The position numbers and the translations under genes are program-made. From Torpedo marmorata (lineage: Eukaryota), in contig OZ360230.1 of the NCBI GenBank assembly GCA_977017645.1, forward strand, positions 28,148,001 through 28,212,000: a stretch of 64,000 nt of DNA, given 5' to 3'. Under the pieces are notes generated by a model that searched no databases, was not told the origin of the DNA, and saw only the letters and a list, made by a program, of their open reading frames with translations. Shown one piece after another: positions 28,915-29,017 of this stretch. Position 1 is the first letter of the stretch; the number at the start of each line of letters is the position of its first letter.

Positions 28915-29017
28915 TTGCAAGCATCACCACATGAATAATCCCTATATGCATCACACATGCTGTGCAATTCTTAAATTCCTTTGGTGCCATGGAGAAACCC
29001 GGGGCTCTGTTTAACAG
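28915..29017 (-). promoter_or_regulatory. SRR2-like Sox2 downstream enhancer
   Basis: Minus strand CATGTGTGATGCATATAGGGATTATTCATGTGGTGATG versus mouse SRR2 CATTGTGATGCATATAGGATTATTCACGTGGTAATG (recalled). Located about 3.8 kb downstream of the TSS. Confidence 0.8.

What the first reader, a model, noticed from the sequence alone, without database searches (positions are those of the whole stretch)
28915..29017. Proto-SRR2: the mammalian Oct4-Sox2 pluripotency enhancer is present but one base away from a Sox site
Seen: minus strand AAAGGAATTT...CACAG CATGTGTG ATGCATAT AGGGATTATTCATGTGGTGATG about 3.8 kb downstream of the TSS (octamer variant 28944-28951, TAATCC 28936-28941). Known (recalled): mouse SRR2 sits about +4 kb and reads AAAAGAATTT...CAGC CATTGTG ATGCATAT AGGATTATTCACGTGGTAATG, where CATTGTG+ATGCATAT is the composite Sox2/Oct4 autoregulatory site. 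Here the POU half, the Otx-type GGATTA and an E-box (CATGTG vs CACGTG) are kept, but the Sox half has an extra G (CATGTGTG). Inference: the element predates the split of cartilaginous and bony fishes as a POU/Otx enhancer. The Oct4-Sox2 feedback site may have arisen by a 1-bp deletion, or been lost in this lineage.
Basis: partly seen in the sequence, partly recalled or inferred. Interest (0 to 1): 0.88.

Follow-up and report, generated by a model that had tools for sequence, protein, structure and literature searches.

The report
Shark-lineage Sox2 enhancer, broken Sox site
A cartilaginous fish carries a clear counterpart of a short Sox2 gene switch described as a late, bird-and-mammal invention, so the switch is probably as old as jawed vertebrates, but here one of its key binding sites is interrupted, and this single sequence cannot tell whether that is the original state or a later loss.

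Summary
Window 28922-28962 (minus strand), 3.6 kb downstream of the start codon of a chondrichthyan Sox2 (307 of 310 residues identical to the shark cluster), matches the printed mouse SRR2 core at 35 of 41 columns (by eye; P about 2e-7 in the window). Published statements restrict SRR2 to amniotes, so a jawed-vertebrate age is new as far as my searches reach. The octamer is intact; the Sox half fails the published Sox/Oct consensus at one base, 28956. 'Pluripotency enhancer' overstates SRR2: it is dispensable in ES cells, inactive in preimplantation embryos and needed in adult neural stem cells. 'Proto' is not shown: all seven Sox-site bases persist around the extra G while the adjacent spacer is unalignable, which favours an ancestral Sox-POU site broken recently (loss, variant or assembly error). 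No vertebrate genomes or reads were available to polarise it. Best reading: an ancient POU-driven neural Sox2 enhancer whose Sox half was secondarily interrupted; 'proto' about 0.3.

The parts
31609..32541 (-). Sox2 single-exon ORF, 310 aa (target gene)
   Evidence: ORF; best hit 99% in residues 120-310 to a cluster named Heterodontus francisci / Scyliorhinus canicula Sox2, bony vertebrates at most 84% over any span and at most 80% full-length; 307 of 310 identical, no gaps
30730..30735 (-). Only AATAAA/ATTAAA in the scanned 3' region; likely poly(A) signal, placing the element about 1.8 kb past the exon
   Evidence: scan of 30600-31608; mouse element lies ~2 kb downstream of the exon (PMC1874607); function inferred
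28922..28962 (-). SRR2-orthologous core
   Evidence: 35 of 41 columns identical to the printed mouse core, by eye; significance
28952..28959 (-). Interrupted Sox half-site; base 28956 is the extra or substituted G. The native 8-mer also reads as an E-box (28954-28959) and a T-box core (28951-28956)
   Evidence: fails the FF0 Sox/Oct consensus of PMC5314778 at one position; motif inventory; binding untested
28944..28951 (-). Octamer variant ATGCATAT (POU site), identical to mouse
   Evidence: the same 8-mer is the motif reported for BRN2 ChIP-seq peaks in neural progenitors (PMC3578749)
28940..28942 (-). G-run one base longer than in mouse; shifts octamer-to-GGATTA spacing by 1
   Evidence: by eye
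28936..28941 (-). GGATTA, K50-homeodomain-type motif, conserved
   Evidence: 35 such hexamers in the window; factor assignment is motif-only
28928..28934 (-). E-box with TpG where mouse has CpG (T at 28931); keeps a TCAYGTG frame
   Evidence: Myc binds the mouse/human-type probe (PMC5438634); MiT/TFE-USF reading of the frame is recalled, untested
28931..28938 (+). Possible second, inverted POU-type half-site created by the T at 28931, facing the octamer
   Evidence: 12 of 21 self-complementary columns over 28931-28951, 6 of 7 at each end; Pit-1/POU-type label recalled; inference
28973..28982 (-). A/T-rich block matching the mouse core at 9 of 10, separated from the core by an unalignable spacer (10 nt here, 12 in mouse)
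   Evidence: by eye; assignment ambiguous because a similar word follows at 28966-28972
29018..29183 (.). Assembly gap (166 N) just 5' of the element; may hide further SRR2 sequence
   Evidence: longest word shared by the two 300-nt flanks is 10 nt, no sign of a duplicated join
35035..35322 (-). N-2/SRR1 enhancer orthologue (synteny control and rate calibration)
   Evidence: three blocks: 114 matches, 5 substitutions, 4 indel events in 126 columns against probes printed in PMC3413107, by eye

Best explanation
This is the chondrichthyan orthologue of the Sox2 3' enhancer SRR2, so the element dates to the last common ancestor of jawed vertebrates and its reported absence in Xenopus and zebrafish reflects loss or divergence, not late origin (shown by sequence and synteny; age inferred). 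It most likely works as a neural, forebrain stem/progenitor enhancer of Sox2: a class III POU factor (Brn1/Brn2/Oct6) binds the intact octamer, possibly helped by the inverted POU-type half-site, with a homeodomain factor at GGATTA and a bHLH factor at the E-box (inferred from mouse). The Sox half was probably present in the ancestor as a working Sox-POU composite and was interrupted by one G later, in this lineage, removing or much weakening direct SOX2 auto-feedback at this element (inferred).
For: Orthology: 35 of 41 columns, P about 2e-7 in the window; correct side, strand and distance from Sox2; collinear N-2/SRR1 upstream. Neural role: mouse SRR2 transgene is telencephalic and its POU site matters (PMC3413107); deletion lowers SOX2 in adult neural stem cells (PMC13307697 abstract); no effect in ES cells (PMC4265674); not active in preimplantation embryos (PMC12338974); BRN2's ChIP motif equals the retained octamer and POU3 factors favour MORE-like sites without Sox2 (PMC5314778 section 19). 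Loss rather than proto: all seven Sox-half bases are retained in order around the G (4e-4 under saturation; 0.008 at 50% per-site identity) while the neighbouring spacer is unalignable; POU5F1, POU5F3 able to part-support mouse ES cells already exist in sharks and skates (PMC9492771); the element is reported lost in two other lineages; the E-box difference is a CpG-to-TpG type change, usually derived (general knowledge).
Against: Only two states are known to me (this window and the printed mouse core); no other genome could be examined, so polarity is argued, not tested. The seven bases could have been held by another function (the native 8-mer contains an E-box and a T-box core), which would fit the proto reading equally. 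The alignment is not unique: three substitutions take 8% at calibrated rates and up to 99% if this stretch drifts faster, and the calibration blocks were chosen for being conserved. Genome-wide the match alone would be only E about 0.014; synteny carries the rest. No binding or activity data exist for this sequence; ATTA-4 is not visible, so the element may be decaying rather than working.
Confidence: 0.5

Rival explanations
1. Proto-SRR2: the ancestor had a POU + homeodomain + E-box enhancer without a Sox site; a one-base loss on the bony-vertebrate or amniote stem created the SOX2/POU composite and the auto-feedback site.
For: G-indel alignments take 0.92-0.98 at locally calibrated rates; a single deletion at 28956 is the only single edit that gives the strict Sox half in register; the native 8-mer has its own candidate motifs that could explain constraint; cartilaginous fishes often keep ancestral non-coding states (general knowledge).
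Against: Needs a second function to hold exactly the bases of a future Sox site; being one edit from a Sox/Oct site is common (37 vs 31 expected); a second small change is needed if the four bases further 5' are homologous; no outgroup.
Confidence: 0.28
2. The G at 28956 is an assembly error or a private or heterozygous variant; the species has a normal Sox-POU composite.
For: 62 nt from a 166-N gap; two separate extra Gs within 17 nt relative to mouse (by eye); three gaps in 64 kb indicate a draft assembly.
Against: The 933-nt Sox2 ORF has no frameshift and no gap against the shark reference; no duplicated flanks at the gap; the G is not a homopolymer extension; small indels are also real-looking in N-2, far from any gap.
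Confidence: 0.12
3. The site still works as a low-affinity SOX2-POU composite, the POU factor holding SOX2 on an imperfect half-site (compatible with either history).
For: Only one mismatch to the FF0 consensus in ungapped register; FF0 spacing is strongly cooperative for Oct4 and POU3 alike; suboptimal OCT4-SOX2 sites function at Klf4 (PMC11441684).
Against: The mismatch falls in the TTG core that the published consensus holds fixed; the Spec-seq table that would quantify it was not readable.
Confidence: 0.12
4. Neither form is ancestral: a shorter ancestor grew by a dinucleotide slippage in this lineage and by two one-base run extensions in bony vertebrates, keeping equal length; the Sox site would then be a gain by insertion.
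For: All three events are slippage-type; a similar two-base duplication is seen in N-2 block B of this window; explains the equal 11-nt length.
Against: Three events instead of one or two; no sequence with the shorter form has been seen.
Confidence: 0.07
5. Chance likeness; not related to SRR2.
For: The match is short (34-41 columns); at whole-genome scale E about 0.014.
Against: 0 of 400 and 0 of 3000 null queries reach the score; it lies at the expected place and strand next to Sox2.
Confidence: 0.01

Closest known systems
Mouse Sox2 regulatory region 2 (SRR2; 3' enhancer; Tomioka 2002, seen only through PMC3413107, PMC1874607, PMC5438634)
   Same: Position and orientation 3' of Sox2; identical octamer variant; GGATTA; E-box frame; 35 of 41 columns.
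   Different: Sox half interrupted at 28956; one extra G after the octamer; E-box has TpG; spacer unalignable; ATTA-4 not visible; activity untested.
Canonical Sox/Oct composite (FF0 element; HMG/POU cassettes of Nanog, Utf1, Oct4, Fbx15)
   Same: Octamer half and spacing fit; 14 of 15 consensus positions met.
   Different: Fails in the Sox core, so not a member by the published definition.
Sox2 N-2/SRR1 enhancer
   Same: Pan-gnathostome, POU-dependent Sox2 enhancer (reported as POU-dependent and SoxB-independent in the title of Iwafuchi-Doi 2011, seen in a reference list); also present in this window.
   Different: Separate element upstream; no sequence likeness to the SRR2 core was looked for or claimed.
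Ancient conserved non-coding elements shared by cartilaginous fishes and mammals but lost in teleosts
   Same: Same phylogenetic pattern (recalled class).
   Different: Whether this element is already in such catalogues was not checked.

Membership tests
SRR2 orthologue | Sequence homology to the SRR2 core beyond chance | tested here: met
   35 of 41 columns by eye; score hand-counted, null by script
SRR2 orthologue | About 4 kb 3' of the Sox2 TSS, about 2 kb past the exon, same strand | tested here: met
   3590 nt from ATG, about 1.8 kb past the AATAAA vs PMC8019947 and PMC1874607; gap length is an estimate
SRR2 orthologue | Neighbouring gene is Sox2, not Sox1 or Sox3 | tested here: met
   307 of 310 to shark Sox2, 217 of 317 to shark Sox3
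SRR2 orthologue | Intact POU octamer variant | tested here: met
   28944-28951
SRR2 orthologue | ATTA-4 Emx2/Brn2 site 5' of the core | tested here: inconclusive
   no TAAT on either strand in 28942-29017; could lie in the gap
SRR2 orthologue | Enhancer activity in neural stem cells / telencephalon or ES cells | not testable with these tools
   needs reporter assay
Canonical Sox/Oct composite (FF0) | Matches HWTTGWNATGYWWWD | tested here: not met
   absent from the 2 exact hits; present among 37 one-mismatch hits
Canonical Sox/Oct composite (FF0) | Cooperative SOX2-POU dimer on the site | not testable with these tools
   needs EMSA; Spec-seq supplement unreadable
Ancestral ('proto') state of SRR2 | Interrupted form shared across chondrichthyans and early-branching bony fishes | not testable with these tools
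   no vertebrate genome collection is offered
Structured RNA gene | Rfam match at the element | tested here: not met
   only hit in the window is 5S rRNA at 16916-17039

The most novel reading that the evidence does not exclude
An old POU-driven forebrain enhancer of Sox2, kept in its original form in cartilaginous fishes, became a SOX2/POU auto-feedback element (later usable by OCT4-SOX2) through a one-base change on the bony-vertebrate or amniote stem: a datable, single-nucleotide origin of a textbook composite site that can be replayed in a reporter.
Probability: 0.28. Interest if true: 0.7.

Novelty: new variant of a known kind. Interest (0 to 1): 0.42.

Why it matters
[quoted passage not shown] A chondrichthyan orthologue removes SRR2 as an example of a newly arisen element and fits its neural in vivo role. 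The one-base difference gives a clean natural variant for asking when SOX2 auto-feedback at this site appeared or was dropped, answerable by a short genome comparison and one EMSA. The stakes are limited because SRR2 is not required for Sox2 expression in ES cells.

Tried and rejected
Chance likeness: rejected. False join or duplication at the gap: no sign. RNA gene: none at the element. A compensating intact Sox/Oct composite in the window: my strict patterns found 0; the published FF0 pattern found 2, expected 1.38, neither near the element; one canonical Sox core lies about 130 nt downstream (28818-28823), one of 147 in the window, so not meaningful. A second copy of the 3' half of the core at 39619-39634 (15 of 16): 23 of 300 null segments have such a partner, one of them being this pair, so not established. 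My first view that three substitutions explain the Sox half as well as an indel was revised after calibrating on N-2; my note of three indels in N-2 block A was corrected to two. Species identification: the exact protein is not in the collection and the cluster look-up could not be made, so shark, ray or chimaera is left open. Search for SRR2 sequences of other species in print: (listings of 40 of 191, 8 of 8, 30 of 111, 30 of 42, 40 of 1013, 5 of 6, 40 of 2204) showed none for chicken, frog or fish. Tomioka 2002 and Kamachi 2009 are not held. A weak likeness of 28810-28835 to the mouse downstream primer in PMC1874607 was seen by eye and not used.

Full report
Observation. The quoted string is present on the minus strand at the stated coordinates. 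The octamer variant is at 28944-28951, GGATTA at 28936-28941, the E-box at 28928-28933, and a 166-N gap begins at 29018, 62 nt from base 28956. The neighbouring gene is a 310-aa single-exon ORF at 31609-32541. Its residues 120-310 are 99% identical to a cluster named Heterodontus francisci / Scyliorhinus canicula Sox2, against at most 80% for full-length bony-vertebrate hits among the 120 listed of 171; over the whole protein 307 of 310 residues match with no gap, versus 217 of 317 for shark Sox3. The window is therefore a chondrichthyan Sox2 locus; the species is left open.

Homology to SRR2. I compared them with the window by eye; no tool alignment was made. Over 28962-28922 there are 35 matches, 5 mismatches and one 1-base gap in 41 columns. 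The best local piece (28955-28922: 31 matches, 2 mismatches, 1 gap) scores 49 under +2/-3 scoring; 0 of 400 random same-composition queries against the window (maximum 40) and 0 of 3000 against the 3' flank (maximum 34) reached it, P about 1.7e-7 and 1.7e-8; at the scale of a 4-Gb genome E would be about 0.014. Position agrees: 3590 nt from the ATG and about 1.8 kb past the only AATAAA in the scanned 3' region, against about 4 kb from the TSS (PMC8019947, passages) and about 2 kb past the exon (PMC1874607, passages). The TSS near 32764 is recalled likeness, not a tool result. The upstream N-2/SRR1 enhancer is also present at 35035-35322, collinear with mouse. Orthology is secure.

The Sox half. 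Against the published composite consensus FF0 (PMC5314778, abstract, passages and section 19) the site fails at one position, 28956. The 11 nt 5' of the octamer have equal length in both species, so three alignments compete: one indel with the flank unaligned, three substitutions, or two compensating indels. Over 16 rate pairs the share of alignments containing the G indel ranged from 0.01 to 0.95. Calibrating on N-2 (126 columns, 114 matches, 5 substitutions, 4 indel events, by eye) plus the rest of the core gives 0.92 using one-base indels only and 0.98 using all indels; these blocks were chosen because they are conserved, so the figure is an upper-leaning one. Being one base from a Sox/Oct site is common: 37 one-mismatch sites in the window, 31 expected, 13 of 100 shuffles reaching 37; 8.5% of 19,767 random 10-mers are one edit from an in-register Sox half and 1.9% one deletion away. 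The closeness reflects shared descent, not a special coincidence.

Polarity. No vertebrate genomes or reads are offered, and my literature searches showed no SRR2 sequence from chicken, frog or fish (listings only, partial for the larger ones). So polarity is argued. All seven bases of the mammalian Sox half persist in order around the G; under full saturation that has probability 4e-4, and 0.008 even at 50% per-site identity, while the adjacent 10-12-nt spacer is unalignable by eye. Those bases were therefore constrained in both lineages, and the simplest single function that holds exactly them next to an octamer is the Sox half itself; this favours an ancestral composite broken later. The partners existed: sharks and skates have both POU5 paralogues, expressed in early embryos and partly able to support mouse ES cells (PMC9492771, passages). 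Against this, the native 8-mer carries an E-box and a T-box core that might have supplied the constraint, which would fit the proto reading. An error or private variant is possible next to the gap, but the ORF is clean and the gap flanks share no word longer than 10 nt. I put later interruption at about 0.5, proto at 0.28, error or variant at 0.12 and independent slippage at 0.07.

How it most likely works. In mouse, SRR2 is bound by OCT4 and SOX2 and active in ES-cell reporters, yet heterozygous and homozygous deletion does not change Sox2 transcription in ES cells (PMC4265674, passages) and it is not activated in preimplantation embryos (PMC12338974, passages). It drives telencephalic expression with a functionally important POU site (PMC3413107), and its deletion lowers SOX2 in adult neural stem cells (PMC13307697, abstract and passages). 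The retained octamer variant is the motif reported for BRN2 peaks in neural progenitors (PMC3578749, passages), and POU3 factors favour MORE-like sites where Oct4 favours Sox/Oct composites. In the window the T at 28931 turns the canonical E-box into its TpG form and at the same time yields an inverted POU-type half-site facing the octamer (12 of 21 self-complementary columns; label recalled). The likely logic is POU3 plus homeodomain plus bHLH input for forebrain progenitor expression, with little or no direct SOX2 feedback. Shown: sequence, position, motif states. Inferred: every binding and activity step. A low-affinity composite is not excluded (PMC11441684, passages); the Spec-seq supplement that would quantify the mismatch could not be read and may bear on this. 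ATTA-4 is not visible 5' of the core, so decay is also possible.

Comparison and novelty. It is a member of SRR2 by homology and synteny, and not a member of the canonical Sox/Oct composites by the published definition. [quoted passage not shown] Searches listed no paper on SRR2 in cartilaginous fishes. Tomioka 2002 and Kamachi 2009 were not held; Miyagi 2004 and 2006, Uchikawa 2003 and Iwafuchi-Doi 2011 were not seen and are known to me only through citing text or recall; ancient-CNE catalogues and browser alignments were not checked and may already include the element. Whether chicken keeps the intact Sox half is unknown to me.

Verdict. A real, correctly spotted orthologue that pushes SRR2 back to the jawed-vertebrate ancestor, with a natural one-base variant in its defining site. 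The pluripotency framing and the proto polarity are oversold. New variant of a known kind; interest 0.42; the bold reading has probability about 0.28 and would deserve about 0.7.

Noticed in passing
window 35035-35322 (-): N-2/SRR1 enhancer orthologue, about 2.5 kb above the presumed TSS (about 4 kb in mouse). Its POU/ATTA-3 block differs from the mouse probe by a two-base insertion and two substitutions, so the second known POU site of the locus is also altered here.
   Followed up: partly
window 39619-39634 (-): 15 of 16 match to the 3' half of the SRR2 core, same orientation, about 6.9 kb upstream; 23 of 300 null segments have such a partner, so not established.
   Followed up: yes
window 23065-23081 (-): GGATTA three bases from a second copy of the same octamer variant, about 9.5 kb below the ATG; candidate for another Sox2 enhancer.
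   Followed up: no
window 20459-20500 (-): A Sox core beside Lef/Tcf-like words in a CpG-rich stretch, about 12 kb below the ATG; resembles what I recall of the N-1 enhancer core (recalled, untested).
   Followed up: no
window 16916-17039 (-): 5S rRNA-like sequence, 46.1 bits; probably a dispersed pseudogene or SINE head.
   Followed up: no
window about 25290-25445: Near-perfect inverted repeat with partners elsewhere in the window; looks like a small non-autonomous transposon.
   Followed up: no
window 3605-3967, 49693-51764, 58998-60910: ORFs whose translations look like LINE reverse-transcriptase, endonuclease and ORF1 fragments (by appearance, not searched).
   Followed up: no
window 32750-33130 (-): CpG-rich Sox2 promoter region with several CCAAT boxes.
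   Followed up: no
window 8641-8875, 23473-23781, 29018-29183: Three short N gaps; draft-quality assembly.
   Followed up: partly
window 29005-29017 (-): Weak by-eye likeness to the flank of mouse ATTA-4, displaced by about 17 nt and lacking the TAAT core; possibly a remnant.
   Followed up: partly
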